A stretch of 64,000 nt of DNA from assembly GCF_018977255.1 (NCBI RefSeq), contig NW_024704742.1:109804001-109868000 (forward strand). The letters are read 5' to 3'. This document shows, piece by piece, positions 28,511 to 64,000 of the stretch. Each line of letters opens with the position of its first letter. The first letter of the stretch is position 1. A program made the position numbers and the translations under genes. The notes under the pieces are model-generated. The model had not been told where the DNA came from. It saw nothing but the letters and a program-made list of their open reading frames with translations, and did no database searches. The stretch is from Callorhinchus milii. Its lineage: Eukaryota.

Positions 28511-30675
28511 AGGGCATTGCTGATTTCAGCCCAGGCAGCCTGGCTCAGGGCAGGGACTCTTCCCACTGAGCTCCCCTGCAAGCCAAAGCCTAATGGGTAG
28601 AGTGGTCCTTTCTGGTCAAGCAGTGGGAAAGCTTTCCAGAGAATGCTTTGAATGGCATGCTATTCAGGTTTAGCTGGTTAGACTCCAGCAGTACCCCAAT
28701 ATACACACTCGGGTCCCCAAACGTTGGTTTTCATCAACCTGCATCGAATACCTTACTGAATTTGGTGGGCAGGATGTGTCTTTCCAGGGAGAGATGGTGC
28801 ATTCGATTCCAATAAAATTAACTCTGGAATTTCCATTTATAGGTGAGATGCAGGAACTCTCGTACTGGGTTTCCGCACCTGTTAGACACCCGCTGACCAA
28901 AAAAATGTTATCATTTCAGGAAGCATCTGCATTATCATTTCACCAAAGCATTTACTTCCCTGCTTTATGTGTATTCTTATCTCAGATACCTCTCTCTCTA
29001 TATATAATATATATATTAATAACAATAATCAACACATTTGGTATAGCATCTTTCATATTCAGAGGATGTCCCAAAGCGCTTCACAGGATATACTGTAAAG
29101 TGGACTTACTGTCTAATTTGTGAACAAACAATTTTCATTCAACTTTGGCACACAGATTGTGTAAGAACAACTAGTTTCTGTATGTCTGTTAATAAACCAC
29201 TGCACAGAAACAGCCATAGAGATTGGTAGAGTACCAGATTTATCTTTGGTCTAGTTTCACTGAGGTGGTGGTGGGCATGATGCCATTGACCTCAGTTCCG
29301 TTGGACTATGAAGGTAAAATATCATCCAGAGTTCATACGGTTTAGTTATACTGTGACGCTTGTGTGGATATTGTGAAAAAAACATGATTGGGCTCAGTTG
29401 CAATAACTATTTAAATAGGGGTTATCATATCACCCACACTCTGTCTTAGCATGGGGATCAGTTAGTTATGAGTTATAGCAAACATGTTGAGTAGAAATAC
29501 CTGTATTTGATTCATAACACTGATTTTTGTGCAGAGAACAGTTAATTATTTAAGAATTTGTTTTCACACCAGGTATAAATATAATCCTGTTTTGGTTGAG
29601 AATATGCTGGAACACAAAATTAATTATCATTGTTCAGTTTGTCTTTATGTATTATACATGGCCTTTTATATATATCATATATGTAATCATAAGTCAGTGA
29701 ATAAGATGCAAGTGTTCTGAAGACATCAAAAATAAATCATTATCAAAATCTGAGATGAGATTTCAGCCTTGGAATCACTCCAAACTTTTGACCAGTTTTT
29801 ATAATGTGCTGCACAGTTTATTTTTTTGTTGACATCAATCATGGCAAATGCAAATGGTCCACAAATGTGTTTCCCCCACAAAATAGACAGTCAATTCACT
29901 TTGTACTATATTCTGTGAAGCACTTTGAGACGTCTTGAAGATGTGATAAGGTGCTATATCAAATGCAAGGATTATTATTATCATGATCAGTGTGCTATGT
30001 GTTGATATCCATATTAAAAGAATAATAATTCTGGTGCAATTACTGGAGACTTGTTGAGTAATAATCTACAGTTAATTAACATGAAATATAGTCAGTATAC
30101 AGTATTGTAATTTGCTATTGTAAACTAACTTTGAAATAATTCCTATTGAACATGCAGGTGCACGTGAATTTGTTGGACTTGCAATTTATATTCCAGTAAT
30201 AAGGAAAGTTTTGTTTTATGTCCATTTCAGCATGATGGAGAATCTGGCAACACATTATGTTATAAGGTATATACAATAGTAATAATCCCTGCATTTGATA
30301 TAGCGCCTTATCACATCTTCAAGATGTCTCAAAGTACTTCACGGAATACTGTAAAGTGAATTGATTGTATATTTCGTGGACGAAATGTGATTATGAATTA
30401 TGTTGTAAGGCATATATGCAGTGTATGTAAGTTTAAACATATAATGATGCNAAAAAGGAAAAGTTCTAAATACATGTATTCATTAACAATTTTCAAAAAG
30501 CTAGATAATACACCATTAAGGTTTAGAAACATAAATTTCAACACAGAAAGCGGTCATTCTGTCCATGGTGTCTGTGCCACTATGGCATGTTTTGTTTGTT
30601 TTGCAATGAGGTAATTTCCCATTTTGTGATGACTGGTTGGTTAAAGCTCTTCTCCTATGAAATACTAATAATATA

Positions 30676-31780: not shown

Positions 31781-31943
31781 TAATAATAATAATAATCTTT
31801 ACATTTGCTATAGTGCCTTATCATGTCTTTGTGTCGACTCAAAGCGCTTCATAGAATATACTGTGAAGTGAATTGACTATATTTTGTGGGTGAAATGCGG
31901 CAGCCAATTGTGCACAGCAGTGTCCCACAAACAGTCATGGATT
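31781..31943 (-). mobile_element. SINE 3' half, truncated at the ERV LTR start
   Basis: (TAA)n tail and body stop at CAGTCATGGATT, immediately followed by TGTCACG. Confidence 0.8.
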
Positions 31944-33111
31944 TGTCACGATTACTCTATTCTTGCAGTCTTTTGTATTGTGTAAATAATTATGTATATG
32001 TAACTATATAATATTATTTAAGGGAAATGGGGAGGTCTGCCACTTTGAATGGGTTCTGTAAGATTCCAAATTGCAGAAGCTGCTTGCAGCAGAGTTAGCC
32101 ATTAGCCTACACGAGTTACAACCATGTACAGGCCCAGGGCTGCTTGATTGACAGTTGGCTAATAAGCACTAAGAAGCAGCCTGCAGAGTAAAATAACATC
32201 TGGGCGCTAGCGTATGAAAAAACCCTTATATTTGCATTATATGGTGGTTGGAGTCACACACCGAAAGCAATGCTCGGCGCTCCTTGTGATTGCTAACTAA
32301 TGGTCATCATCCAGCACGTACTGACGTGTACAGGACTACTGTACAGTCAGGTTGGTTAATATTTATTTACTAATGCCAGTTATAGTTATGTGTGATTGTT
32401 ATATTTTATGTTATGTGGAGTCCTGTAGCTCAGTGGTTAGAGCACTCGCTTTGCAAACGAGAGACCTGAGTTCAATTCCAGGCAGGGCGAAACCTTGGGC
32501 AAGTTTCCTTACCTCACACGCCTAATAATAATCCCTCCAAAAAACAATAATAAATTGGTCATTTTCAATCTACGACTGTTCGTGGGACATTGCTGTGCGC
32601 AATTGGCTGCCGCGTTCACCCACAAATATACAGTCAATTCACTTTACAGTGTGTTCTGTGAAGCGCTTTGGGATGTCCTCCCGACGTGAAAAGCGCTATA
32701 TCAAATGCAAGGATTATTATTATTATTATTTGCATCCATTGTTGTACATCTTAAATTGTTGTGTTCCTTATATGCAAGGTAGCCTAGGGTTCCTCGGTTT
32801 TAATAAAGAGCTGTTGTTTCCACTGAATGTATCCTCGAGTCTCTAGTATTCTAGACAAGAAAAGGAGTAAGCACTTTGGAGGGTAGTTGTCAACATTGGA
32901 GGTCAACTAGTGTGAGCAGACTCCGATTAGACATTCCAGTTACCAGGCATTGGGGTTAACTGGGAATACCTGTTTGTGTGTGACTCTGACTTGGTTGGCT
33001 CACCTTTGAAATAGGGACTCACACCGACAGGGTTAGGAGAGAAGCAGAGGCCACTTAGTACGAAAGCGTTAGTAAGATTTGCACGTACATCGAGGGGTGA
33101 GAACAGTTGCA
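31944..33111 (+). repeat. Putative 5' LTR (~850 bp after removing the SINE inserted at 32414-32729)
   Basis: Starts with TGTCACG exactly where an older SINE is cut off. Ends ...GTTGCA 2 nt before the PBS. AATAAA at 32802-32807. There is no second LTR to confirm the 5' boundary. Confidence 0.6.
32414..32729 (+). mobile_element. Full-length tRNA-derived SINE (Deu-domain-like body, L2-like 3' tail), inserted in the LTR
   Basis: Box A TAGCTCAGTGG (32426-32436) and box B GAGTTCAATTCC (32468-32479). Body GTGGGACATTGCTGTGCGCAATTGGCTGCCGCG. Tail GCGCTTTGGGATGTCCTCCCGACGTGAAAAGCGCTATATCAAATGCAAGGA(TTA)n. Confidence 0.9.
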
Positions 33112-33113
33112 CT

Positions 33114-33131
33114 TGGCGCCCAATGCGGGGC
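33114..33131 (+). promoter_or_regulatory. Retroviral primer-binding site, tRNA-Lys1,2 type
   Basis: TGGCGCCCAATGCGGGGC versus the canonical TGGCGCCCAACGTGGGGC (16/18), followed by TCGA as in foamy viruses. Confidence 0.88.
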
Positions 33132-33189
33132 TCGAGGACATTGATGTAGAACTTCAGAATTTACTTCTACTGGAGTGTAAGGATAAGTT

Positions 33190-34700
33190 AATGGTAGATA
33201 CAACAAAATGCGACCAGGACAAATTTCTTAACACACAACATTCTGCATTCTAGGAAACATACGGGACGAACCCATCGAGAAACAATTCCGATGGGGGAAT
33301 GGCTATATGAATGAAGCATAGCTACTACCAATTCAGTAACTTGAGAGAATCGAGGTCCTTAGCGTGAAAAAACTTAATGAGTCTGATGAAGAAATAGAGT
33401 ATTTAGCATATAGAGACTGGGATAGGCAAACCCTCCAACTGAAGAAATTAAAATGTTAAAATTGACCCAAAGAGGCAATTTTAACTACAGTAGCAGAAGT
33501 AGAGCAGGAGCGAGTGCTTTGTTGCAGCTGAGGAAAGGCATAAGGTTAACCGACCCAAATAAGGAAAGCAAATCAAAACAAACCTCCTCGGGTGAGCAGT
33601 TTAGACTCAACTATACCTGGCTCCTTACAGCCCGGTATGTGGTTCAAGAACGGAGATCTCCGGCTAGCTCAGTGACTAGAAGATCCTATTTGAAGGGTTC
33701 TTGGGGCACTGCGTGGGATGCCAACACAGAATTTTTTTTAAGCTTTGTACGAGGCACCAAGTGTACTGGCAGTGAAAGAGAGAGCGCGAGGATGGTTGCG
33801 GAGACCGCATGGGAGGAGGCCATAGAGGAAAATTGGGAGGGAAACCTCACAAAAGTACTCACTCAGTTCAAAACCTGGGGAAAAGCTTTCTAAGGTACCA
33901 GCGGAATGCCTGATAATTGGCTCCGCTCCCAAATTAAGAGCAGACCCGTTGCTGCATTTAAATCATGGTGCAGATTATCTTCAAAAAGCGCAAATGGGAG
34001 CAGCAGTCTTCTCCCTCCCATCGGGACTAGTAGCAGGAATACATTTAACCTGAAAATATCGAGAATATACAAAAAATGCAACAGAGGCTTTTGAGCCACA
34101 GAAACAAATACTTTCCGAAATATACGAAAATAAAGTAACTGAAATAAATATAGCTTTGCGAGAAATGTAGGCTGATGTGCAGAGGTTGTCCGATCAACTT
34201 CTGTAAGCATATTATATTATAGTGAATAAGATATTATAGTGCAATTAAGGTTAGATGAGGCAGGGCAGCTGTCCCAAATAACGGAATTAAAAGCACAATT
34301 AACAAGTAAGGGACTCTTAAACGAGGGACCAGAAGTTTTAATGAGCGTAAATTGCGCACGGGAAAACATCCACGTGGCAAATGATAATGGTGTACAGTTG
34401 GCGAATTACTCACACACTGAAAGTGGGCTGGGCTTAAATCCTTAACAGGCACTGTGCCCGAATTTAAAGAAATTGAAAGCTGGCTGGATTCGCGACAGCG
34501 AAATTGGTAGATTATCTGAGTAAAGCCGCCGTGCAGATTTATTTGCAACAGTAAATAAACGCTAGAGGGACCTGATCAATCCCAAGTAGGATAATTTGGT
34601 TATGGTGCTTAGCGAAATTAAAGGAACAGTCGTAAGAGAAGGATAAAATAGACCAGGTTAGGGCGTTAAAAAACGGACATCCCCAAGTGCTAGCGTCCAA
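33190..34700 (+). pseudogene. Probable gag remnant of the ERV
   Basis: A-rich coding-like sequence between the PBS and RT, with a residual 146-aa ORF (33453-33893). Assigned by position only; no diagnostic motif recognised. Confidence 0.45.
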
Positions 34701-34914
34701 AATCACCAAATTATTTTCAAAGGAGCTCTGGGAGAAATGTTTCTAATGGCAATGCCACCAGATAGAAGAAGTTTCGTCCTTGCCTCTGACGTCGATCCAC
34801 TCAAGCCAGGGCGCTGGGACTTAATAATTAAAGGGCGTAAAAGCATTACCGTTTTTATTGTACAAACAATTTATTTGTTGAAAACAATCAATGTCATGAC
34901 AATTATGATCAGTG

Positions 34915-35580
34915 ACTCAAACGCTGATCTAAAAAATATTATCCAGGAATTAGAAAGGAGAGATATAATTACAAAATGTGAATCTTCAGCAAATTCACCT
35001 CTTTTGCCGTTGCGTAAAGCAGATGGGTCATGGTGACTGGTTATAGAGTTCCGTCAGTTAAATACTGCTACCGAAACAACAACGGGTCAAAGCACATCAT
35101 TTGGTGGAAATTTAGACAATCTTCCTAAGGGAAAATACAAAACGACCTTGGATCTGACTAACAGGTTCAAGAGTGTTCCCTTAGCTAAAGATGATAGGTG
35201 GAAAACAGCATTTGCCTTCCGTGGACAGCACTTCCATTGGTCCCGACTGCCGTAGAGATGGAAAAATTCTCCTGCCATTTTTAACGAGTGCACACAACAG
35301 ACCGTGATTGGGATCCCTGGTGTCATTTGTTATGTAGATGATATTTCGAACATCTTAAGAAATTGGAAGGCTGGAGGTGCTCACTTCTGCGAGATCTAAA
35401 ATAAACCTTAAGAAAAGCTAGATAGGCTGATATAAAGTAGATTTCCTTGGCCATGCTTTCTGAGAAGATGTGGTAGGTCTGTTGGAGGGTTATCTAGAAA
35501 AAATTTAAAAAATGGTGACTCCTAAAAACAGGAAACAATTACAAGGAATTTTGGGGCTCTGTAATTCTGGCCGCAATTTT
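34915..35580 (+). pseudogene. pol: Retroviral pol (reverse transcriptase) pseudogene, foamy-like
   Basis: Manual translation: ADLKNIIQELERRDIITKCESSANSPLLPLRKADGSW*LVIEFRQLNTATETTTGQSTSFGGNLDNLPKGKYKTTLDLTNRFKSVPLAKDDRWKTAFAFRGQHFHWSRLP*RWKNSPAIFNECTQQTVIGIPGVICYVDDI (YVDD at 35331-35342). After a disruption it continues KINLKKS*IG*YKVDFLGHAF*EDVVGLLEGYLEKI*KMVTPKNRKQLQGILGLCNSGRNF. Confidence 0.9.
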
Positions 35581-36390
35581 GAAGGGATTTTGGGAGGCAG
35601 TTCCAGAGAGTGGGAACATAGTGGCTGAAGACTTAGCTGCCTTGAAAATATCTTTACATTGTTTTTTTGCCATTTTACAGTGGTTGGACTAGAAGATTTG
35701 ACTCCCAGCTTCAGTTTCCATTGAAAGCATTTAATGGGCACTTTGAGCAATTTATTTCTTTATCAGACCAATAGAAAGACTAGTAGTGGATGGTACCTTG
35801 GTGGGGGAGAAAAAACACTAAGAGGGATAGGTGATCATGGAATGGTCATGACGGAGGAATTCAGTGACCTAGTTCATTCCTGTCCTGAAAGATTCATAGT
35901 GGTGGGTTAGGAACAAAGGGACAAAAAACAGGCAATGTACCCAACAGATGTCTGGCAAGCTTTCCCGTTGCTTGTCCAGCTAGATCCACCCTACCTGTTA
36001 GGGTTTTGGCTTGGAGGGTTAACACAAGCTGAGTGGGAGGATTCCTTGCCTCCAGTGACTGGTCTGCCCTTCCAAGTCCTACTGATGAGCCAGGATGGCT
36101 GTGCTGTCATCAGCAGTACCCTGGATTACTGCGGACCTGCGGAGCTCAGGAACTGGACTACCGAGACCACCACAGAGGGCTGGCTCGAATTTGACATTCT
36201 GTTGCCAAACATGTGACCTTGGAGCCAGTTCAGCTCCAAGGAGACCCTGCTTAGCTCCCCCACCCAAAGGAGGATAGTCACTAATTGGTCATTTGACATT
36301 CAACAAACACAGGTTTGAGTCCTTACTAGGTGGATGGTAGACACCAGGAACTCCCTGCGAGTTTCCTGTTGGGCTACACAGCTCCGCTTG

Positions 36391-36600
36391 ACACAAAATA
36401 TTGCAGAGGCTGGAAAACTGAAATAAAAACAGAAGTCACTGGGAACACTCAACAGGTCAGGCAGCATCTATGGAGAGAGGAAAGTGAGTTTTCATTTCAG
36501 ATCTGACGAAAATTCAGCGACCTGAAACGTTAACTCACTTTCCTTGCTCCATAGATGCTGCTTGATCTGCTGAGTGTTCTCAGTGACTTCTGTTTTTATT
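36391..36600. repeat. Palindromic interspersed repeat (chondrichthyan Penelope-terminus/MER6-like type)
   Basis: Arms 36421-36490 and 36532-36600 are reverse complements; the centre contains CTGACGA...GAAACGTT. A related copy is at 19100-19232. Confidence 0.75.
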
Positions 36601-38856
36601 ACAGCTCAGCATGAAATATGTGAGAGCATTGTCGCCATCTTCCTGTTGACAGCTTGGGCACACATCCCTTCCCATTGAGCGATGGTTCAGAGGGGTTTAT
36701 TATTATGAACAGAGCAGCTGGAATATGACTATTATTTCATCAACTAGTACAACACTGTACACACTGACATTTGAAGTACTAAAGAAATTTAAGGATTGAA
36801 AATTGCAAATAAAAGAGTAACCAGGAGCCAACCTACACGGGCACTTATTGGTGTAAAATTTAAGGTGATCACCCCTTTAAATCCAGACAATACTTTGAGA
36901 ATACTTTGAATTTTGGAGAAAATGTTATTGCATGCACAGACATTGCCAAAAAATAGACTTTTGATGTAAGTAGGAAAATTGTTTTCATTTTTTTTGTTAA
37001 AATGTGTTTCAATTATTCTACAATGTTTTGACTCATTACCTCCCAGATAAACTTGGGACTCAGCCGTGACCTCACCAGTACTCTGGTCCTCTTTCCTTGT
37101 TGACAGCCTTGACCCTCATCTCCCTCTCACAATTGCCCTGGCTCTCTTCTCACACAGTGATTTGAATCTGGTCTTCAGGTCTTGCTCTCACTTGATGCAA
37201 ACTTCTGGTTGTTTTTTTGGGGGGGCGCAGGAGGGAGGTGGTCATTCCAAAATTATGGGTATGTATATGCTAGTAACTTTTTCCAACTATGAAGTAAAAC
37301 GATTTTCCCTGAATGTTGGTCAACGTTTTAATAATCTGGAGTGACAGAACTATCTATGACACTGCTTCAGGCATTTCCATTGCAGGATTTGTTAGGACTG
37401 ATAGTCATGGCTCATAATAGACTTTTTAGTCCACTCTACTTGCATATCATAGTTGAGTGCAAAAACAAGTTCATATAAGAGCGCTTAATTGGCTAGGCAC
37501 AAGAACAATAATTCAAAATAAGAAGAATTGTTTTTAATTTTTGTATAGTAATACAGAATTTATAAGTGGTGGTACTTGGCCAAATGTTCATACACTATTT
37601 GCTGTGAAGAACACAACAATAAATTGCATTTGTATAGCGCCTTTCATGTTGGGAGGATGTCCCATGGCGCTGAACAATATAGAAATATAGCATGTATAGC
37701 ACCTAAATAGAAATTGAACCCATTTTATTCTTTTGAACCTTTTAAAACAAAATGTGTTCACTTTCAAACAATGGATCATTTCAGTTCAAGAAGGTGGGCA
37801 AATGATTGTTCCTAGGCCCCAGTATTGTCCTAACCATAACAGAGATGTGCAAAAGTAACATTATTATTATTTCAAGACAACTATGTTGTCACATTTGGTA
37901 GTTTTGTCATCCAGTGGGAAAGTTCAGAAATCAGGACAGAAATCACTGTCCTTCTAATCCTGGTGCATTCCATTGGTACAGCAATATACGTGAAGTCATA
38001 TTTTTGAAACAGTCATTACGGCCTAGAGTAAAGCAAGTTTATAATGTTATATATAATTATTCACTAGAATTTCTAATGAAGATACATAAATAAAGTTAGC
38101 ATTTAGTAGCAACATTTTAACACAGAATATTGCGCTGTGGGAAATACTAGTATTGTTGTATGGTTCCATTAGGAGGGTGAGGAAAATCGTAGGCTGAAGA
38201 GCCAATCAGTGCGCTCAAGCCATCACAATTGCCTATTGAGTCCGAGCAGATCAGCTACTACTTATTGAGCAACTGACACAGGTGGAGTGGCTTATGCATC
38301 CTTGCTGCCGGAAAAATTGAGTAGCTCTTTCCATGACAATGTTAGGATGTTTTGGGCCTGCTCAGTTAAGGAAATTAACCAAACCGCTGGTCATTTTGTC
38401 CTTTACTCTGCATCATATGTCATTCAGCACACTCTTTGCCATGACATCTACATACTGAAACACAAAACAAATTCTGCCCCTCCAACCTCACAGTGAAGAA
38501 AGCAACTAAAAAATGTTAGTTCAATGTGAGAAACTTTTATTGTGCTTCCGCACCTCAATGTAAACCCAACAGATGCCTGTTGTGCAATCCATGAACTTGC
38601 ATGCAATTGGCACCTTCCAAGCATTATACTTTGTCTTTGCCCATTATGACAAGTTACAAATCACTTGTATGCTACAAAGACATTTTGGCTTGTTTCACTA
38701 ATAATGTGTCATTACATTATTCATTACAGTTTAAAACTATTTCATTACAGATATTACTTTGAAACATAACTAAATTATTATTACATGTAGGAGAAGTAAT
38801 GATTCTTGTGTATATTTGGATACTAATTCAGACCCATCTCCTGATATCAAGTAAGA

Positions 38857-41800
38857 AAACAACAACAACAACAACAAGATTCCATTTATAGAGCGCCTTT
38901 CACGTCAGGAGGACGTCCCAAGGCGCTGCACAGTTGGGTCATGACCCGAGCAGGGGGAAATGGTCAGGGTGAGGGGAGGGAAGGGAGGGAGAGAGGAGGG
39001 GGAAATGGTCAGGGTGAGGGGAGGGAAGGGAGGGAGCGAGGAGGAGGAAGAGAGTCGAGAGGGGAGCTGAAGGCACGGTCAAAGAGAAAGGTTTTGAGAC
39101 CGGCCTTGAAGGAGGAAAGGGAGGAAGCAAGGCGAAGGCACTGGGGGATGGAGTTCCAGAGCCTGGGGGCTGAGAGGCTGAAGGCCCGACCACCGATAGT
39201 AGGGCGGTTGGGGCGGGGGACGTGGAGCAGACCGGAGCCAGAGGAACGGAGGGTACGGGCAGGTAGGTAGGGGGATAGTAGGTTGGAGAGGTAGGAGGGA
39301 GCAAGGCCGTGAATGGCCTTGTAGGTGAGGATGAGGATCTTGAAATCAATCCTCTGGGGGATGGGGAGCCAGTGGAGGCGAGCGAGGGTGGGAGTGATGT
39401 GATCGCGAAGCCTGGTGCGGGACAGTACACGAGCTGCAGAGTTCTGAATGACCTGCAGCTTGTGGAGGGAGGTGGCGGGAAGGCCGGCGAGGAGAGAGTT
39501 CCCATAGTCCAGCCTTGAGGTGACAAAGGCGTGAACCAGGGTTTCAGCGGCGTGAGGGGTGAGGTAGTGCCGTAATCTGGCGATATTCCGGAGGTGATGG
39601 AAGGCGGTGCCAGTTGTGGTGCGGATGTGAGGGAGAAAGGACAGCTCAGGGTCGAACAAAACGCCGAGGTTCCTGACTGGCTTTGAGAGGTGGAGAGTGC
39701 AGCCTTGGATGCTGATGGTGTCAGCGCCTGAGGTGCGGAGGCGCTGACGTGAGCCAATCAGGAGGGCCTCGGTTTTTCGCACGTTGAGCTGAAGAAAGTT
39801 GTCTCTCGTCCAGGACTCGATGTCGGACAGGCAGGCTGTCAGGACATCGGTGGTCGTGGAGTTGAGAGTAGAGGAGGAAAGGTAGAGTTGGGTGTCATCC
39901 GCATACATGTGGAAGTTAACCCCATGTTTGCGGATGATGTCACCAAGGGGGAGCATATAGAGGGTGAAGAGGAGGGGACCGAGGACAGAGCCCTGAGGGA
40001 CACCACATGAGACAGTACGGGGGGTGGAGGAGAAGCCATTCGTTGAGACGAAGTGAAGACGGTGGGAAAGGTAAGAGCTAAACCATTCAAGGACAGTGCC
40101 TTGAAGGTTGAGGTGGGAGGACAAGCGGTGGAGTAGGATAGCGTGGTCGACCGTATCGAATGCTGCCGATAGGTCGAGGAGGACGAGGAGACAGAGGGAG
40201 CCCTGGTCACAGATGGTCAGGATATCATTGGTGACCTTGACCAGGGCAGTTTCTGTGCTATGGGCAGCACGGAAACCTGACTGAAGGGGTTCGAAAAGAG
40301 AATGGGTGGAGAGGAAAGAGCGCAGTTGGGAGGCGACAACTCTTTCCAAGACCTTGGAGAGAAAGGGGAGGTTGGAGATGGGCCGGTAGCTTGATAGCTG
40401 CGACGCATCAAGGGAGGGTTTTTTCAGGGTGGGCGTGATGATGGCAGTTTTTAATGGAATGGGGACAGAGCCAGAGGAGAGGGACAGGTTTATGATGTCA
40501 GTGATGTGTGGGGCAAGAAAATGGAGCTGGGAGATAAGGAGTGGAGTGGGGATGGGGTCAAGGGAGCAGGTGGTTGGTTTTAGGGATAGGATGAGTTCAG
40601 TGACAGAGGGTGGGGAAACGGGTACGAAGGTGTGTAGGGGAGGATGGGTAGGAGTCGGAGTGTGGGAGGGAAGGGGTGGGTGGTGGGTGGAAGTTGGAGG
40701 GGAAGTGACCGCGGAGCGGATTCCCTTGATCTTGGATTCAAGGAAATCCAGCATCTCCTCGCAGTGAAGGTTGGAGGAGATGACCTGCGCGGGGTGGCGG
40801 GGGGGACGGAGGAGTCGGGATGTGGTGGAAAACAGTAGCCTGGGGTTGTTCTTCGCCTCCAGGATTATCCTGGAGTAGAAGGACGACTTGGCCGAGGCTA
40901 GAGTGGAGCGGTAAATTTTGAGGAGGTCCAGCCAGATTTGTCGGTGGACCGTTAGGCCAGATTTGACACAGGTGCGCTCAGCAGCCCGCACCTGGCATTT
41001 CAGTGAGCGGAGGTGGGTGGTGTACCAGGGGGAGGAGCGGGAGTAGGAGACAGTGCGGGAAGTGATGGGGGCAAGAGTATCGAGTGTGGAGGAGAGGATA
41101 TTGTGGAGGAGGGAGAGAGGAGAAGAGGGGTCGGTGAGGGTTGAAGGCCAGAGGGAGAGGAGTTCAGAGGACTCCAAGGCATCGGTTAGGGATTGTGGGG
41201 GTAACTTCTTCCAAGGGCGGTAGAAGATGGTGGTGGGTCTGGTGGAGGTGGGGAGGGGGGTGGAGGTGGTGAAGGAGATGAAGTAGTGGTCGGAGATGGC
41301 CTTGTCGGTAATAGTGACATCCGAGACACTGAGGCCCCGGGTGATCACCAAATCGAGTGGGTGGCCGTGACTGTGAGTGGGGGAGTTTATGTGTAGGGAA
41401 AGGTTGAGTGAGGAGAGCAGGGAAGAGAAGTCTGTGGAGATGGAGCAGGAGGGGGTGAAGTGTAGGTTAAAGTCGCCCAGGATGATGAGGCGATCAGAGG
41501 AGAGGCAAAGAGATGTGAGGAGTGTTGAAATGTCAGAGATGAAGGTGGGAGAGGTTTTAGGGGGCCGGTAGAGGAGGAGGATTTTAAGGGAGAGGAATGA
41601 GGGGTGGGAGAGGGTGAGGTGCTCGAAGGAGGGGAAAGAGCCAGTGGAGTAAGGGGATAGGGCAAGTGGTGTCCTTGAGATAAGGGCAACACCACCGCCA
41701 CGGCGGTTGGGGCGGGGGATGTGGTGGGAGGTGTAGCCGGGTGGCGTGGCCTCCGTGAGGGGGAAGGTGTCGCCTGGGGTGAGCCAGGTTTCTGTCAAGG

Positions 41801-42195
41801 CCATGATATCAACGTTCTCATCAAGGATGAGATCGTTGATGACCAGGGCCTTGTTGCAGAGGGAGCGGACATTTTGCAGTCCGATGTGGAGGGAGCGGTT
41901 GACAGAAGGGTGTGTGGGAGGGGAGGGGGTTCCAGGTTGTGAGGCAGGGGTGGGGGGAATGGGGATGAGGGAGGAGAGGTTGACTCCCCGGGTCTGTGTC
42001 CGGGGTGGCTGGCGAGAGTGGTGGGGAATGGGGCAGTCGGTGTGGCTGCTGCTGGACAGCCAACGCCGAGTGCCACGGTGAGCCCGGCGGAGGATTCCCA
42101 GGCTGGAGCAGAGGGAGGTTGTGGGAGGGTCAAGTGGGGATAGAAGACGAGAGGGACGGAGAGAGAGGAGGAGAGAGCGGGAGAGTCTTGAAAGG
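38857..42195 (-). mobile_element. L2-clade LINE retrotransposon, 5'-truncated, young copy
   Basis: GC-rich 3.3 kb block with sharp edges against AT-rich flanks. Minus-strand 3' end reads ...GCGCCTTGGGACGTCCTCCTGACGTGAAAGGCGCTCTATAAATGGAATC followed by a (TTG)n tail. Contains the APE endonuclease + RT ORF. Confidence 0.93.
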
Positions 42196-42287
42196 GTAAA
42201 AAATGAAATTTGCAGTGGTTGAAAAGAACGTTCAGCTTCTGCCATCATTTGTAATGACGCTTGGTGGTATAAGTCGATGACCTTCAT
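39009..42287 (-). CDS. LINE (L2) ORF2: apurinic-type endonuclease + reverse transcriptase, 1092 aa, no internal stops
   Basis: Endonuclease motifs LQNVRSL, LTETWL, GDFN, DLVIT, SDH. RT motifs [43 protein letters not shown] (39894-39905). L2-type C-terminus [10 protein letters not shown]...[13 protein letters not shown]...[15 protein letters not shown]. The first ~30 codons appear to come from flanking host DNA. Confidence 0.93.
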
Positions 42288-42345: not shown

Positions 42346-42653
42346 ATAATAATAATCCTTGCATTTGATATAGCGCTTTTCACATCTAGACGTCTCAAAG
42401 CGCTTCACAGAATATACTGTAAAGTAAATTGACTATATTTGTGGGCGAATTGCAGCAGCCAATTGCGTACAGCAGTGTCCCACAAACCGTCATAGATTGA
42501 AGTGAGCAATTTTATTATTGTTTTTTTTTCTTGAGGGATTATTATCAGGCGTAAGGAGTAAGGAAACTTGCCCAATGTTTCACTCTGCTGGAAATCGAAC
42601 CCAGGTCTCTCGCTTGCGAGGCGTGTGCTCTAACCACTGAGATACAGGACTCC
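42346..42653 (-). mobile_element. Full-length tRNA-derived SINE
   Basis: Same head, body and tail as 32414-32729, more diverged. Confidence 0.88.
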
Positions 42654-45600
42654 CTAATTGATGGCAGGGAAAGGTATTCAAAGCTAAATACTTGAAGATA
42701 AATGAAACTTTTGTGAAACTGCGGCATTAGTGCAATACTCGAAAAGCAACTCAGATACCATTATAAAATAAAGGTAAAATGTTGTAAAAATTGACCATGT
42801 GATAAAGTGAAAAGAATGAAGGATAATAATAATAATTCTTGCATTTGATATAGTGCCTTATCACGTCTTCGATACGTCTCAAAGCGCTTCACAGAATATA
42901 TTGGATATACATTGAAGTCCTTTTCAAATGTGGTGTTTGGGATCCATAAAGTTCCAACTCACATTATTGGAAGGCACAATAGCAGTTTTAACTGCACATG
43001 CACACAGCCAGCAGCACTTTGCTTCCTGCACATTGCCACCTTTTGAATTATCTTTGTTTTTGCTGCTCATGCGTAAAGATCATGGAAACTATTGTTTAAC
43101 AGTTTTGTTGCTTTGTTGCTCCAAATGCTGTGATGCACTCTTGCTTCCACACTGGAAGGTGAATCATTCCTCTTGGTACTTGCTTCTTCCCTGCCATTTG
43201 CTCTAAACCATGCCCATTTTGACTGGCTCTGTTGTAGATTGGCACCTGACCATGCTAGTTTTCATAAGTTGAGGTGTTTGCTCCAGTAGGAGATGATATT
43301 GGCATGTTCGAGGGGAAGGAATCTGTTCCAATGACCATCTGCCTTGCACAAGTGGTGACGCTTGCAGGCTCTGCGGAAATAAAATGTCTTCCTTGGGGAA
43401 AGTGGATATTTGCAGTGCAGAATCTTGATCAGCCAGCAGATGTTGAGGTATACTCATGCTCACTCCACAAGCCCGCCACATCATGGGGTAGAGTGCTAGG
43501 CATCACTACAGAATGGTTAACTGCCAAATAATTCCATACATATTGAAGAAAACCCTGATGTGTTTCTTCACATCCAAACATTGTTTCAAGTGTATCGAGC
43601 AGTAAACCAAGAATATCTATAAACACAAGATGAGTTTGGTTTTGTTCAGGCATGGTGTGGAGAAGAAGTTTTCTGTGAAGTTCTTTTCTGAGTGCTGATC
43701 TGCAAAATGGCATTTTTAATAATTCTTCAAGTTCCAAGAAAGATTACCATGGTTTATTTTTTAATGTTCCTCCGTCAATCTTCAAAATCTGAGCTTTTCA
43801 TTAGATGCAAAATTGGCACAAAGAGCAGTTTTACAGCTCATGAAAAATGTGTTTTCAAAATGTGGCTTCCACCACCAAAATGGCCGGTGGGAAAAAAGAG
43901 GCAGAAGAAATCAGAAATGTTTCAAGATTAAATAATTTAGAAAAAAGTGTTAGACAAGCTAGAAAGCAGTAAAAAATTAACTTTAAATTAAAAACATTAG
44001 ACAAACTGGAATAACACACACAGGGAAAAGGAGATGGCAGGGTGAACACATGTAATTCAATTTGTAAAAAAGAATCAGTTTAGGGATAATATACTAATCA
44101 AGATATCCTAGTAGTAACTTTCCTACTGTAAAATTAATGTTTCTTTTCAGCACTACAGTGCCAGAGTTTGAAAGTTAAGGACATTTTCAGCCAATTAGAT
44201 GAGATTTTATAGACTTGATTGCTATTTCAGCTCCCACTCCCAACACCCTGTTTTTTGTGACTCAGCTAAGAACTGAAGAAACACGAGGTGGTTTCACTCA
44301 AGTGGCTGGGAGTATTGTCTCTATTTACATGCAAGACGTATAGATTTGTTAACAAATGTTTATCCAATATAATACTAAAGTAATGCTACTGTAACATGTA
44401 GTTGCATTATTTTGTAGATAATTGTGGTTATCTGGTTACTGTGTGATTGTAAAGATAAATAGCTGATGATTAAATTAGCTAAAAACTGTTGCAAATTATT
44501 TTATGTTTGGAATCGGATACTCTTTAAAAATTTATCCTGCACTTCTGTTGCATAGTGATGGAAGAATTTTTACATGCGCTCCAGAACATAACATTGAAAG
44601 TGCTCAGATTTACTCACAGGGTGGGTAGATATGAGGCATGCTGACAAAAGAGCACTTACCCATGGCAGAGCACTTTGTATCAAGATAATTTTCTTCTTGG
44701 CCTGTCGTGACCTTTCTGACCATTTTCCTATACAAAGAGCAATAGACTGAATGCTGCCATTTCAGTCTGTGCAGTAGACTGCAACTTACGTCTTTTTAGT
44801 CTGTTTTGGTGGGAGGAGAGAGTATAACAAAACTGAAAGAAATCTTGGCCGATTGTGAAAAGTTGCATTAGGCAACAGGGTGAAGGCTGGCATTTACTGC
44901 AAATGAGGTTTGTTAGCTATTTCTATACAGAGAATGGAAAAAAAAATTTGTTTGAAAAGTTGTAATATAGGACCAGCTCTTACACATGGATGACTGAAGA
45001 GAGTGCTCTCAAAGAGAAACCCAGGTACTGAGTAAAATGGCAAAACCTCTTTGATATCTTAAAATAAAAAGCAGTTTTTAGGCATCAATGACTGATGACG
45101 TTTCTGATGATGTGTCTGATTAATAGACAGATGAATTTGTATTGAGCAGTCTTTAAAATATTGCATGCACATTTTGCACCCTTAATTTGTATTACAAATA
45201 AACTAGCAATGCATTATTTTATTTGTACTAATGTATCAGAAAATAATCACATGAGGTAATTAACACATATTTTATAGATTGTTATGTGGTGAAAAGTTTC
45301 TTCATACCCACTTTCAGTGACAGATGACCTTTGCAGATTTGACAACATACCCATTTTCAATCATATAACATTTGCAAAACTTATTTTCGGCACTGAATAT
45401 TACAAAGCAGAATTAGATGAATTTATGACACCATAGATTTTTATTTGGCACCTGATGTTCTTCGAATAAATCAAAAATAGTATTCCTGTTATGCTTTGAA
45501 TTTTGTCATAGATATTCCACTGTCAAACTTGAAAATTCCTGCACATAGGGTTAGGTTAAAATGAAATACAAAATAGGAGAAAGTAATTCTTCTTATTAAA

Positions 45601-60340: not shown

Positions 60341-62169
60341 CCAAACCCTGTATCTGCCCTCTTCCCCTCTCCCCATATTAAGAAACAGACTTATCCAACA
60401 CTAGATCCGTCAGGTGGACTTGACATAGATAATAGTCTTGCTTAAATATATGAAGAACAGGAAGAATGTGTATCCAATTAGCATAGGAATGCAAACAGGG
60501 AACATTCCAGCTATGTAATTTGGAACAAGGAAAAAAACATGCACACAACTAAGTTTCTCATAAATATAACTTTGTACAAATAGACTTGTCATACAAGTAG
60601 ACTTAGGTGTGATTTAAAATCAAACAAAGTCATGGCATTATTCTTGCACTTAATCATTATTTAACTGTTAAAATTATTGGATAACAAGATTTTAATTCTT
60701 CATTTCTAAATTTTAAAAACAGTAAAAAGCCTCTTTACACATTCCACTATTACCTTGCCTACTCTGGACTGGATTGGATGTCACATTTGAGCCATATGTA
60801 AGAAAAGGGGAGGACGTGTAGTTCCACATGAAAAAGTCTTAAAGCGGAAGGCGTACCGAGGGATTTCCCCTGTCGTTATGCTGACTTTTTTTCTCTGAAG
60901 GATAGCTTAATTTAATGTGAGGAGTTAATCTACTTTTCTTAACCCTTATGAGAGCTGCACTCGTTGCATGCACTATATAGAGTTCTTGTTTATGTTTCTA
61001 TTCATTGAGTAGAATGAGGTTCAAATAAGAATTAAATGCTTCTGAATTCTGGGACCTATTAAAATAAATTGAAGGCAAAAATATTTTAAACTTTAAAAAT
61101 AGTTTATTTTAGAACTGCTTAATCGCCCACAGGAGATGGCTAGTTAAATATACTATTGGGCCAGAAATCTCACCTACTCTTAACCTTTGATGCCATTCTG
61201 CCTTAAAATGTAAAACTGCTCAGAATTTGGGAGACACTCTTAATTTGGAAGGACGTTCCACAATGTTGGACAATCTTAAACTTTAAGACAAAATAGTTTT
61301 ATATGCAAAGACTAGCTAATATTTTTGGCTTTGGATTGAAACTCAAGTCATAGAGACCGGGGAAGGTTTATCTGCTGAGTTAGTCAGTATCAAGTTGGAT
61401 AGCAATGAAGAGTTGTGATGAGTCAGATAGATTCCAATTTCTAAATGTTCAGAGAAGTGTTTTTCCAATGCACAATATTCCCAATTTTTGAGAGTGACGA
61501 TTCATGTAAGAGCAGTGTCTATCTGACCATTTCTAGATTTTTCAACTTTGCGATCTTTCAACATGATACACAGCAAGAATTGTTAGGTTCACGAATTTTA
61601 GAAATTAAAGATTCCACTTATGGGAATTATTGTGTTTCTCATTCTCGGCATCCGTCACACACTGTAGAAGGAGGTCTGTATCACTACTGTGCCAGAAAAT
61701 TCCACCAAATGGACAACTTTGCTTTACATTGCGTTATACTTATTTTAGAGGAAAAATATTCTGTAACATTGCCCAACTCCCATTCTTGTACCCAAGGAAA
61801 CGCTTCATGAGTTTTTTTTCACAAATTCCAGCTCAGCTCCAAGTTGGCCCTGCTCACCTCCTCCCCAAGGAGGATAGTCCAGAGATGAGAGTTACCAATT
61901 GAACCAAGCTGATATCTATACATAATTGGTACCTGGGGTGGTTTCCTCTCTGACCAAGTTTAATCATCTTTTCTGCCTAATGAAGCAAAGTACTATTATA
62001 AAACTGCTGATTTATTGACTGTTGAAGTGGTTTAGATATGCTTTTCATGCTTTAAATTAAACACTTCCTCAAATATGCTGTACTGTCCATCCATCTACTC
62101 ACCAGAAAGTATTGGAACTCTCTAAGTTGTATTTATATTAATTTATCTTTGTTTTTTCTTAACTTACAG

Positions 62170-62289
62170 AATAATAGCACTCCAGAAGAGCACACACTGT
62201 ATGTCTGGGATCACTTTATTTCCAAATCTTCTGTCAAGAATGTAGTATTTGTTGCCCACAGTTATGGTGGACTGGTATTTGTGGAGTTG
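62170..62289 (+). CDS. FAM172A: Next coding exon of FAM172A/ARB2A (120 nt, phase 0-0)
   Basis: Polypyrimidine tract, ttacAG|AAT acceptor and TTG|GTaagt donor. Encodes [40 protein letters not shown] (recalled human [40 protein letters not shown]), including the AHSYGG nucleophile-elbow-like motif. Confidence 0.95.
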
Positions 62290-64000
62290 GTAAGTATTTC
62301 TTTGTTTTCATTGTCTGTTACAACTCAAATTGTTCTATTTTCTTTACCACGTGGGTGCACATCAAACATATACCTCTCTATTCAGAGAATTCCAGAACTT
62401 TACCACTCATCCAAGGAAGGAAAATCTTTTTTTTAATCAGGGCAAAATATCAGGTGACTGCACTGACTAATTAATATATTTTACTTTGTTAGTAGTATGA
62501 AGCTTAATGGTAAAATTGGTCGATAGCAATTAAGTGAAAATGGTGTAAGTCTGTTTTTCTTGCTTTGAATCTGACTGGGATGAATATAAAGTCATCAAAT
62601 ATCATATTGTAACGATATTTTATGAATCTGAAATTCAAATTTGGGTACATCATCTGAAAAAGCTTTGTTGTTTTTTGATTAGAATGAATATCTTTCTTTT
62701 TGATTAATTACTGACAGTAATGCAAACTTAATTTATATTTTGGGATAGCAGCTGGGATTTCTATCATAGACGATGAAGCATTACTGTAAATGGTGACATC
62801 AAGTTTTAAAAAGACAGCAGTTCTTTCTATCTCCATAAAAAATGGAGAAGATCTTTATCCTTTACATTCTTAAAATGCTCTTGCATTATTCCCTTAACGG
62901 ACATAGATTTGAAAGTGATTTATTTTTGCTTTCATGCTTTTTGTTATTAAAATCTAGTCAGACACATTTTTAAACTAAACTGATTTAGTTCAGACCGAGT
63001 TTAACCCTTTGGTTAAATTAAATGTGCTATGAAAACTGTTTTAAATGTAGCTAATGTTGAGTTAATAAATGTGAATTTATATGAAGTAAAATAAATTAAA
63101 GCTTACTGTACAGTAATGCTGTTTTTGGGTTTGATAGAAATTAATATAAACAATAGAGAATTACATACTGGTCCATCACAACATTGTGTAGTGGATGTGC
63201 AGCTTACTAAGAAAAGAATATCAAGGAGAAAACGTGTTAGCTTGTTTTATTTATTCTTTGCGCACCAAAAGCTGGTAAAGTGGTGCATAACTAATATGGA
63301 TTTATTTGGATTTAATCCAAACACTTGGATTTATAATTGTTCTTGCTTCCCAAAAAAATTAGAAGAGGAATGTGCAATGTCTTGTGTTTGTAATAAGAAA
63401 TATTATTAATTTTTGAACAGAAAAGTAAGGTGTTTCAGCAGAAAAGTTGATATGTATGATTCAGATTTAGTGATGCATTTTGTGAATTTTTCATGGAGTG
63501 TAATTGTGTCACCAACTGCAGTTTTGAAATAGACTATGAGCTGATTGACCTTTAGACGGTGAAGTAGTGGTGCATTCTATGGATATGGTAAATGATGTTT
63601 GCCCTCAGACCAAACAATTACAAGTCTTCCCACCTAAAGACATAAATGAAGGGTCGTGGATGACCACTGTGACATTCCTTCTGTCTATGTCTCTCATCAC
63701 ACTGGTGGATATTTTTTCCTCCTTTGTTCTGTGTTACTATAATGCATCCAGATGTCTCAGGGTAAGACTTGACATCTGACCTTGGGGCTTTAGGGTGAAG
63801 GTGCCCCCTGAGCCTGTGAATTTATCCCAGGCTGGGCTAAAGTCTTCCACAAGGCATTTTGGTCTTGGTGCAGGAAGTAACCAGTAAGTAAGAAATTACA
63901 AGGGTGCTTTGTCAGGAAAAGAAGATAGTAGGAGGAGCAAGTTCTGAAGACTGCTTACACTGCAGGAGCTGAATGCATGAACGGCATGACATAATACATC

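What the first reader, a model, noticed from the sequence alone, without database searches (positions are those of the whole stretch)
31944..35600. Endogenous foamy-virus-like retrovirus fossil in a FAM172A intron
Seen in sequence: LTR-like block, Lys1,2 PBS followed by TCGA, and a stop-interrupted RT that the ORF track captures only in part. Established knowledge (recalled): prototype foamy virus RT reads DGRWRMVLDYREVNKTIPLTAAQNQHSAGIL...KYKTTLDLANGF...TAFTWQGKQYCWTRLPQGFLNSPALF...IPNVQVYVDDI...LKKSEIGQKTVEFLG...PPKDLKQLQSILGLLNFARNF. The fossil follows this block for block, including KYKTTLDL and KQLQGILGLCNSGRNF. Foamy-like ERVs are known from fish and a chimaera but are rare. Inference: this may be a divergent or undescribed lineage relevant to the deep origin of spumaretroviruses.
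Basis: partly seen in the sequence, partly recalled or inferred. Interest (0 to 1): 0.85.

Follow-up and report, generated by a model that had tools for sequence, protein, structure and literature searches.

The report
Dead foamy-like retrovirus copy, elephant shark
This is a real but long-dead, half-deleted copy of a foamy-virus-like endogenous retrovirus in an elephant-shark gene intron, from a multi-copy family with no envelope gene, in a species where such fossils are already published.

Summary
Window 31944-33111 is a TG...CA LTR, split by a later SINE at 32410-32721. A tRNA-Lys(CTT) primer-binding site follows at 33114-33131, matching 16 of 18 bases and unique in the window. Next come a gag-type region, a ~720-bp deletion that removed the protease and the RT N-terminus, and an RT remnant at 34926-35580. 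The copy stops at 35581 with no RNase H, integrase or 3' LTR.

The RT matches solved foamy-virus PR-RT best: E 1e-28, against Ty3 2e-13 and HIV 1e-10. In an IQ-TREE it falls inside a 100/100 clade holding feline foamy virus Pol and proteins from hosts of known foamy-like ERVs.

The genome is Callorhinchus milii. The family has about 20 internal loci and at least 258 LTR candidates. Fuller copies read LTR-PBS-gag-pro-RT-RNaseH-IN-0.54 kb-PPT-LTR, about 7.2 kb, with no room for env in any of 13 loci examined. One LTR pair differs by K2P 0.108.

Foamy-like ERVs of this species (CmiFLERVs, pol only) were published in 2017. One published locus is sister to this family but only about 34% identical. 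I could not compare the other four. The result is real and ordinary; the new detail is the full env-less structure and evidence for a gag gene.

The parts
31944..33111 (+). 5' LTR, TG...CA. About 856 bp is native sequence and 312 bp is a later SINE insertion. AATAAA lies at 32802-32807.
   Evidence: Aligns to both LTRs of the C2 provirus and to LTRs of other copies. Termini read. At least 258 first-look LTR candidates in the genome; the 39 scored besides the window's own were 86-90% identical.
32410..32721 (+). tRNA-derived SINE inserted into the LTR after integration. Not part of the virus.
   Evidence: Absent at this point from the LTRs of C2_75.2M, C4_57.76M and C2_89.79M. tRNA-like head at 32420-32489. 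85-97% identical to many SINE copies.
33114..33136 (+). Primer-binding site for tRNA-Lys(CTT) (Lys1,2). The 18-nt core is 33114-33131 and complementarity runs on to 33136.
   Evidence: 16 of 18 bases match the complement of the host tRNA-Lys 3' end. Unique in the window, with 0 of 100 shuffles matching. The copy on C2 at 75.2 Mb matches 17 of 18.
33137..34911 (+). Leader plus decayed gag-type gene, with at least 24 stops in every frame. A possible start ATG at 33191 (M-V-D is seen in the three copies whose translations I read) is inference.
   Evidence: 78.6% identical over 2239 aligned columns to the C2 provirus. No Pfam hit. No CCHC box in 5 of 5 copies. In the homologous gag C-terminal stretch of C2_75.2M, compared with the divergent copy C2_6.84M, differences fall on third codon positions: 38/27/77, p 4e-7.
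34911..34951 (+). Junction of a private ~720-bp deletion that removed the protease and the N-terminal part of RT.
   Evidence: The C2 provirus has 740 bp here (4963-5703). Other copies have 560-760 bp.
34926..35580 (+). Reverse-transcriptase remnant (fingers, palm with YVDDI, start of thumb). It carries 6 stops, frameshifts and a short deletion just after YVDDI.
   Evidence: Pfam RVT_1 E 5.3e-13. Foamy-virus PR-RT in the PDB E 1.3e-28, gap-free over 141 residues. tblastn with feline foamy virus RT: 36% over 140 aa and 43% over 67 aa, E 1.9e-33.
35581..35581 (+). 3' truncation point. RNase H, integrase, polypurine tract and 3' LTR are missing from the whole window.
   Evidence: BLAST of the full C2 provirus against all 64 kb finds nothing of the family beyond 35581. 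35581-35630 resembles a LINE-related fragment.

Best explanation
The window holds a dead, partly deleted and 3'-truncated provirus of a multi-copy, env-less foamy-like endogenous retrovirus family of Callorhinchus milii.

What replication looked like when the family was active:
- Transcripts ran from the 5' LTR (inferred).
- Minus-strand DNA synthesis was primed by host tRNA-Lys(CTT) at the PBS (the site is shown; its use is inferred).
- Plus-strand synthesis was primed from a purine tract just before the 3' LTR (seen in fuller copies).
- Integrase inserted the DNA with an approximately 4-bp target duplication (seen, imperfect).

All examined copies lack env. The family therefore most likely multiplied inside germ-line cells, or with envelope supplied in trans (inferred).

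The window copy then picked up a SINE in its LTR, lost its protease and RT N-terminus through a ~720-bp deletion, lost everything past mid-RT, and decayed neutrally. It has no coding capacity now.

Its only conceivable present effect is an LTR with an AATAAA signal, in sense orientation inside an intron. That effect was not tested.
For: RT identity:
- Pfam RVT_1 E 5.3e-13.
- The five best rows of the PDB search are foamy-virus PR-RT chains (7o0h, 7o24, 7o0g, 7kse, 7ksf) at E 1.3e-28 to 1.1e-27. Ty3 scores 2e-13 and the best HIV-1 1e-10. No MLV-type chain is among the 60 rows shown.
- An exhaustive HMMER search of 1.84 billion representatives with a fuller copy's RT-RH-IN ranks feline foamy virus Pol 10th, at E 2.3e-40.

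Phylogeny (IQ-TREE, 53 rows, 304 columns), support as UFBoot/SH-aLRT:
- The 8 family copies group at 100/99.
- Adding C. milii XP_007889123.1: 98/81.
- Adding FFV Pol, a Pleurodeles protein and one unnamed row: 94/81.
- The 26-row clade holding these plus teleost and catshark proteins: 100/100.

Retroviral landmarks:
- TG...CA LTR, Lys1,2 PBS, purine tract AGAGGGGGAAGGAAA before the 3' LTR.
- 4-bp flanks matching 3 of 4 bases in 2 of 2 full copies.

Family structure:
- The C2 provirus is 7.7 kb with paired LTRs, plus Pfam RVT_1, RNase_H and integrase SH3_11 hits.
- The integrase end abuts the 0.54-kb pre-LTR segment directly in 9 loci and within 350 bp in 3 more. One further copy has a private LINE-like insert there.

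Gag was a real gene:
- Between the two sublineages, differences fall on third codon positions in gag (38/27/77, p 4e-7), as they do in RT (16/15/47, p 2e-6).
- Within-family comparisons and LTR controls are flat.
Against: - No env, no accessory genes and no room for them, unlike exogenous foamy viruses and the characterised teleost and newt elements.
- No Pfam match at E <= 0.01 to any foamy-specific Gag, protease or Env family in the frame translations of 4 copies.
- No PDB hit for gag or for the integrase core of the one copy tried.
- The protease remnant reads as a DTG-type site (ALVNTWAQ in one copy). Exogenous foamy viruses have DSG, which I recall and did not test.
- The tree has no labelled gamma, epsilon, ERV-L, SnRV or lokiretrovirus rows. 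Exclusion of those groups rests on PDB scores and on unlabelled sister clades.
- The word-index search found only Ty3/gypsy-like proteins, which reflects how that method picks candidates.
Confidence: 0.9

Rival explanations
1. The family is a FLERV lineage of the elephant shark that is not among the published CmiFLERV loci, so it is an undescribed lineage.
For: The one published locus I could identify (P0030, taken to be the protein of XM_007890932.1 on the strength of NCBI's paired numbering, which no call checked) is only about 34% identical in protein to the family.

The genome also holds a separate group of 8 loci that cluster with a Xenopus tropicalis protein. The 2017 paper stresses a frog-shark cluster, so the published loci could be those instead. 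The paper lists only 5 loci and found no gene other than pol.
Against: The published screen used foamy RT queries on the same species' assembly. This family has at least 8 RT-bearing copies scoring E 1e-11 to 1e-44 against feline foamy virus RT, so it is hard to miss. The paper reports two shark clades, which fits P0030 plus this family.
Confidence: 0.35
2. It is an ERV-L-type or other non-foamy class III ERV, not a foamy-like one. Env-less gag-pol elements are typical of ERV-L.
For: The family has no env. No foamy-specific Gag, protease or Env profile matches. A sister clade of 11 rows includes bird, coelacanth and frog proteins that may be class III ERVs.
Against: A 100/100 branch separates the family from that sister clade and puts it with feline foamy virus Pol. 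The PBS is Lys1,2, not Leu. No dUTPase profile hit in full frame translations of two long copies.
Confidence: 0.05
3. It is a Ty3/gypsy LTR retrotransposon whose RT resembles foamy RT only superficially.
For: Its gag-pol-only structure. The word-index protein search returned only gypsy-type proteins, 14 of 14.
Against: Foamy PR-RT scores 102 bits against 53 for Ty3. Gypsy-like rows lie outside a 39-row clade that has 99 SH-aLRT support in the quick tree. The copies match Pfam RNase_H (PF00075) and the retroviral integrase SH3_11 domain, and no gypsy-type RT_RNaseH domain.
Confidence: 0.02

Closest known systems
CmiFLERVs, the foamy-like ERVs of Callorhinchus milii (Aiewsakun & Katzourakis 2017, PMC5512871; passages and Supplementary Table 1 read)
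   Same: Same host species. Foamy-like RT. The locus XM_007890932.1, whose protein I take to be XP_007889123.1, is the sister of this family in my tree at 98/81.
   Different: That locus is only about 34% identical in protein. The paper reports pol only. Here I describe LTRs, a Lys1,2 PBS, a purine tract, a gag-type gene and an env-less layout. Identity with the other four listed loci could not be tested.
Exogenous foamy viruses: feline foamy virus Pol (P0026); marmoset and prototype foamy virus PR-RT (PDB 7o0h, 7kse)
   Same: Best RT match of all solved structures, gap-free over 141 residues. 36-43% RT identity. tRNA-Lys PBS, as in most mammalian foamy viruses according to PMC5512871.
   Different: No env, no tas/bet-type genes and no room for an internal promoter. 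No match to any foamy-specific Gag or protease profile at E <= 0.01. DTG-type protease remnant. Dead and endogenous.
Teleost FLERVs AciFLERV and AliFLERV (PMC5512871, passages read)
   Same: tRNA-Lys PBS after the 5' LTR. Proteins from teleosts, one of them a host named in the paper (Larimichthys crocea), sit in the same 100/100 clade.
   Different: Those elements are very large, with env and several accessory ORFs, and their LTR pairs differ by 0.2-1.1%. This family is about 7.2 kb, env-less, and has an LTR pair at K2P 0.108. It sits in the other half of the clade.
ERV-L (class III, env-less; features recalled, not from a call)
   Same: Env-less gag-pro-pol element with many solo LTRs. It works like ERV-L as an intragenomic amplifier.
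   Different: PBS is Lys1,2 and not Leu. No dUTPase hit. RT groups with foamy virus.
ERV-Spuma.0-Sca of the small-spotted catshark (Song et al. 2023, PMC10699275; passages read)
   Same: A chondrichthyan foamy-like ERV, also with no recognisable Gag domain.
   Different: It is reported to group with ray-finned-fish FLERVs. In my tree a Scyliorhinus torazame protein likewise sits in the teleost half, while the elephant-shark family sits with feline foamy virus and a salamander protein.

Membership tests
Foamy virus / FLERV clade (Spumaretrovirinae-like) | RT groups with foamy viruses and known FLERVs in a phylogeny | tested here: met
   26-row clade at 100/100 with feline foamy virus Pol plus proteins from teleosts, a catshark and a salamander. 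The family itself is at 100/99. No labelled orthoretrovirus or ERV-L rows were available.
Foamy virus / FLERV clade (Spumaretrovirinae-like) | Closest solved RT is a foamy-virus RT | tested here: met
   7o0h, 7o24, 7o0g, 7kse and 7ksf at E 1.3e-28 to 1.1e-27. Ty3 2e-13. HIV 1e-10 or weaker.
Foamy virus / FLERV clade (Spumaretrovirinae-like) | PBS complementary to tRNA-Lys1,2 (most mammalian foamy viruses and teleost FLERVs; PMC5512871) | tested here: met
   16 of 18 in the window and 17 of 18 in the C2 copy, against the host tRNA-Lys(CTT) 3' end.
Foamy virus / FLERV clade (Spumaretrovirinae-like) | Gag without Cys-His zinc knuckles (feature recalled) | tested here: inconclusive
   No C-X2-C-X3-5-H-X3-5-C in any forward frame of the gag region in 5 of 5 copies. 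But every frame has 12 or more stops, so loss by decay cannot be excluded. GR boxes were not tested.
Foamy virus / FLERV clade (Spumaretrovirinae-like) | Match to the foamy-specific Pfam Gag and A9 protease families (their existence is recalled) | tested here: not met
   No family other than RVT_1, RNase_H and SH3_11 at E <= 0.01 in frame translations of 4 copies. Song 2023 also reports no Gag domain in shark and lamprey foamy-like ERVs.
Foamy virus / FLERV clade (Spumaretrovirinae-like) | Foamy-type env and 3' accessory genes | tested here: not met
   The integrase end joins the 0.54-kb pre-LTR segment directly in 9 loci and within 350 bp in 3 more. One copy has a private LINE-like insert there. 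No env profile hit.
Foamy virus / FLERV clade (Spumaretrovirinae-like) | 4-bp target-site duplication (feature recalled) | tested here: inconclusive
   AAGA/AAGC and ATAT/ATAG flank the 2 full copies examined, 3 of 4 bases each. The window copy lacks its 3' end.
Published CmiFLERV loci | Near-identity to a listed locus | tested here: not met
   XP_007889123.1, taken on paired numbering as the product of XM_007890932.1 (no call checked the pairing), lies at G000:C5:60470764-60472218. It is about 34% identical to the family's RT. This covers one locus only.
Published CmiFLERV loci | Near-identity to the four AAVX02 contig loci | not testable with these tools
   The accessions are listed. No sequence text was found in the supplements by motif search, and no tool fetches these records.
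ERV-L (class III) | tRNA-Leu PBS and a dUTPase after integrase (features recalled) | tested here: not met
   The PBS is Lys(CTT). No dUTPase hit at E <= 0.01 in two long copies.
Ty3/gypsy | RT groups with Ty3/gypsy; gypsy-type RT-RNaseH domains | tested here: not met
   Gypsy-like rows are outside the 39-row clade, SH-aLRT 99. The copies match PF00075 and PF18103, and no gypsy-type RT_RNaseH domain.

The most novel reading that the evidence does not exclude
The family is an unreported holocephalan foamy-like lineage that lost env yet kept a gag gene under purifying selection. It would belong to a branch shared with tetrapod foamy viruses rather than with the teleost and catshark FLERVs.

That would imply that two foamy-like lineages already co-existed before chimaeras and bony vertebrates split, or that an ancient cross-class transfer occurred. 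It would also mean Lys1,2 priming goes back to the base of jawed vertebrates.
Probability: 0.25. Interest if true: 0.45.

Novelty: new member of a known kind. Interest (0 to 1): 0.22.

Why it matters
Foamy-like fossils in cartilaginous fishes anchor the argument that retroviruses arose in the sea more than 450 million years ago. For the elephant shark, only pol fragments are in print.

This locus and its fuller relatives give a complete layout for the family: LTR, Lys1,2 PBS, a gag that was once under selection, pro-pol, a purine tract, and no env. They also hint that chimaera elements sit nearer to tetrapod foamy viruses than catshark and teleost ones do.

That refines a known picture. It does not open a new one, and the window copy itself is an inert remnant.

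Tried and rejected
- The word-index protein search with the fuller copy's RT-RH-IN returned only 14 Ty3/gypsy-like proteins and no foamy protein. I used those only as outgroups.
- Integrase region of the C2 copy against the PDB: 0 hits at E <= 0.01.
- Gag C-terminal stretch against the PDB: only chance-level ribosomal uL29 rows, E 0.14 or worse.
- Pfam PF09757 in the own genome found nothing, and nothing in the controls either. PF22749 then found the Arb2 exons.
- The idea that the SINE in the LTR is shared with the C5 copy was rejected. The C5 SINE sits about 60-70 bp away, at a different junction.
- An AU test of whether all named chondrichthyan rows could form one clade did not finish in two runs and was dropped.
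- Searching the 2017 supplements for RT motifs to recover the published sequences found none.
- The LTR pair of the second long copy (C2 at 12.27 Mb) was unusable for dating because its 3' LTR is interrupted.
Full report
**What is in the window**

The block 31944-33111 begins with TG and ends with CA. It aligns to both LTRs of a 7.7-kb provirus on contig C2, which I call C2_75.2M; its LTRs are at oriented positions 2313-3160 and 9214-10013. The alignment skips window 32410-32721.

That skipped stretch is a tRNA-derived SINE. ARAGORN reads a tRNA-like head at 32420-32489. The SINE is absent at this point from the LTRs of three other copies, so it is a later insertion.

Two bases after the LTR lies TGGCGCCCAATGCGGGGC, at 33114-33131. 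The host genome carries ...GAGCCCCACGTTGGGCG in 12 of 12 pattern hits. In 3 of 3 loci checked, that sequence is the 3' end of a tRNA-Lys(CTT) gene. The site therefore matches 16 of 18 bases, and the copy on C2 matches 17 of 18. It is the only match in 64 kb at up to 2 mismatches, and none occurred in 100 shuffles.

**The coding part**

Window 32722-34911 is 78.6% identical to C2_75.2M across the rest of the LTR, the leader and gag. About 720 bp present in every other copy is then missing. That stretch encodes the protease and the RT N-terminus.

The RT remnant runs from 34926 to 35580:
- One frame of 34902-35399 has 3 stops and a second frame of 35347-35640 has 6.
- There is a short deletion and frame changes just after YVDDI.
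- Pfam RVT_1 scores E 5.3e-13.

Nothing of the family lies beyond 35581 anywhere in the window. The copy therefore lacks RNase H, integrase and its 3' LTR.

**Is it foamy-like?**

Against all PDB sequences, the five best rows are foamy-virus PR-RT chains at E 1.3e-28 to 1.1e-27, with a gap-free 141-residue alignment. Ty3 follows at 2e-13 and HIV-1 at 1e-10 or weaker. No MLV-type chain is among the 60 rows shown.

A word-index search found only gypsy-like proteins. I therefore ran an exhaustive HMMER search of 1.84 billion representatives with the RT-RH-IN of C2_75.2M, reading X at stops. It gave 26,619 hits at E <= 1e-3, and feline foamy virus Pol ranked 10th at E 2.3e-40.

I extracted the RT region of the hits. 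For each genomic copy I joined the tblastn pieces with X at each break. I chose 53 rows after a FastTree of all 172. The IQ-TREE analysis used LG+C20+F+G4 on 304 columns and gave these supports (UFBoot/SH-aLRT):
- The 8 family copies: 100/99.
- Plus C. milii XP_007889123.1: 98/81.
- Plus feline foamy virus Pol, a Pleurodeles waltl protein and one unnamed row: 94/81.
- A 26-row clade that also holds proteins of Scyliorhinus torazame and five teleosts: 100/100.

Gypsy-like rows fall outside. A sister clade holds bird, coelacanth and frog proteins.

The main limit is that no labelled gamma-, epsilon-, ERV-L-, SnRV- or loki-type sequence could be obtained. The exclusion of those groups rests on PDB scores and on unlabelled neighbours.

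**Host**

XP_007889123.1 is found at 100% identity over all 485 residues at G000:C5:60470764-60472218. The source records it on a contig of 69,331,348 bases, which is exactly the length of C5. The genome is therefore Callorhinchus milii, as earlier notes of this scan also said.

**The family**

The RT region has 29 further matches in the genome, and the RT-to-integrase region marks about 20 loci. The 3' part of the LTR has at least 258 first-look candidates. Forty were scored, and the 39 besides the window's own were 86-90% identical. Only 1 of those 39 runs on into the PBS, so most are probably solo LTRs.

C2_75.2M carries Pfam RVT_1, RNase_H and the retroviral integrase SH3_11 domain. It has a purine tract, AGAGGGGGAAGGAAA, directly before its 3' LTR, and 4-bp flanks AAGA/AAGC. 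A second long copy has ATAT/ATAG.

The integrase end abuts a conserved 0.54-kb segment that leads into the 3' LTR. The junction is direct in 9 loci and within 350 bp in 3 more, and C2_75.2M has a private LINE-like insert there. So there is no room for env or accessory genes in any of the 13 loci. No env, dUTPase or foamy-specific Gag, protease or Env profile matched at E <= 0.01.

**Gag**

The region between the PBS and the protease has no recognisable domain. It has no CCHC box in 5 of 5 copies.

It was nonetheless a gene. I compared C2_75.2M with the divergent sublineage copy C2_6.84M. Differences by codon position are 38/27/77 in gag (p 4e-7) and 16/15/47 in RT (p 2e-6). Comparisons within the family are flat, and so are comparisons of LTRs.

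The two sublineages therefore diverged while replicating under selection. The copies within the family then decayed neutrally after insertion.

**Age**

The LTR pair of C2_75.2M differs by K2P 0.108 over 773 sites. That corresponds to about 25 My at a mammalian rate of 2.2e-9 per site per year. At the ten-fold slower rate that Han (2015, PMC4422223, whole text read) assumed for this species, it is about 245 My. The window copy has one LTR only and cannot be dated this way. It is 78-83% identical to its relatives.

**Context**

Two + strand exons match the Arb2 domain (PF22749). One is at C1:109778528-109778713, before the window, and one is at window 62164-62295. The element lies between them in sense orientation. 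The LTR start abuts half of a SINE at 31781-31943.

**What is already known**

- Aiewsakun and Katzourakis (2017, PMC5512871; passages and Supplementary Table 1) list five foamy-like RT loci from C. milii. They describe two shark clades, one tied to a Xenopus element, and state that no gene other than pol was detected in this species.
- The same paper reports tRNA-Lys PBSs in teleost FLERVs and most mammalian foamy viruses.
- Xu et al. (2018, PMC6001957; passages) place a foamy-related clade across jawed vertebrates.
- Song et al. (2023, PMC10699275; passages) describe a catshark ERV-Spuma with no detectable Gag or Env domain.
- Han (2015) found only SnRV-like and epsilon-like ERVs, because env was required.

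One published locus is the sister of this family, but only about 34% identical. I link that locus, XM_007890932.1, to XP_007889123.1 by NCBI's paired numbering, which no call checked. The other four loci could not be fetched, and the supplements hold no sequence.

A wider look at the genome shows more foamy-clade sublineages: three further sublineage loci beside the family (C4:78.46M, C13:8.66M, C12:8.88M) and a separate branch at C12:8.78M. It also shows a separate group of 8 loci that cluster with a Xenopus tropicalis protein. That group may be what the paper's frog-shark cluster refers to.

**Verdict**

The window copy is an inert, deleted and truncated member of an old env-less family, in a species whose foamy-like ERVs are already reported. 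The additions here are the full layout of the family and the evidence for a gag gene. Interest is low to modest.

Noticed in passing
window 39009-42287 (-): An uninterrupted 1092-residue LINE ORF with endonuclease and RT domains. A copy 92.7% identical over 2.75 kb is inserted into another copy of the foamy-like family on C2 at 89.79 Mb, so this LINE was active after the ERV family.
   Followed up: partly
window 31781-31943, 32410-32721, 30275-30385, 42346-42653, 42823-42903: Many copies of one tRNA-derived SINE of about 315 bp with an (ATT)n tail. The half-copy at 31781-31943 ends exactly at the LTR start. Either the provirus landed inside a SINE and the other half was lost with the 3' end, or a truncated SINE landed beside it.
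   Followed up: partly
G000:C5:60470764-60472218 (L029): The sister lineage of the family is a single locus with a 494-residue open frame covering RT and RNase H, annotated as gene LOC103177007 (XP_007889123.1). An open frame in such an old lineage could mean co-option.
   Followed up: no
G000 loci C5:55632661, C33:1126742, C30:1790522, C15:6259599, C8:670312, C5:11761256, C2:34052714, C1:120108404 (L033-L037, L040-L042): Eight loci of another ERV group cluster with a Xenopus tropicalis protein at SH-aLRT 98, outside the foamy clade in my tree. Several have open frames of 280-595 residues. This may be the frog-shark cluster of the 2017 paper.
   Followed up: partly
G000:C548:27124-28488 and C364:71202-72062 (L043, L038): ERV pol frames of up to 1296 open residues on unplaced scaffolds. 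They are nearly identical to a protein assembled from public reads (P0094) and group with an Oryzias protein. This looks like a young ERV lineage.
   Followed up: no
window 36418-36604: A 188-bp stretch matches its own reverse complement at 84%, so it is a hairpin-forming inverted repeat. Parts of it recur at window 19113-19208.
   Followed up: no
window 62164-62295 (+): An exon matching Arb2-domain profile positions 169-212. The preceding detected exon (positions 67-126) lies about 25 kb before the window. The exon for positions 127-168 was not detected.
   Followed up: no
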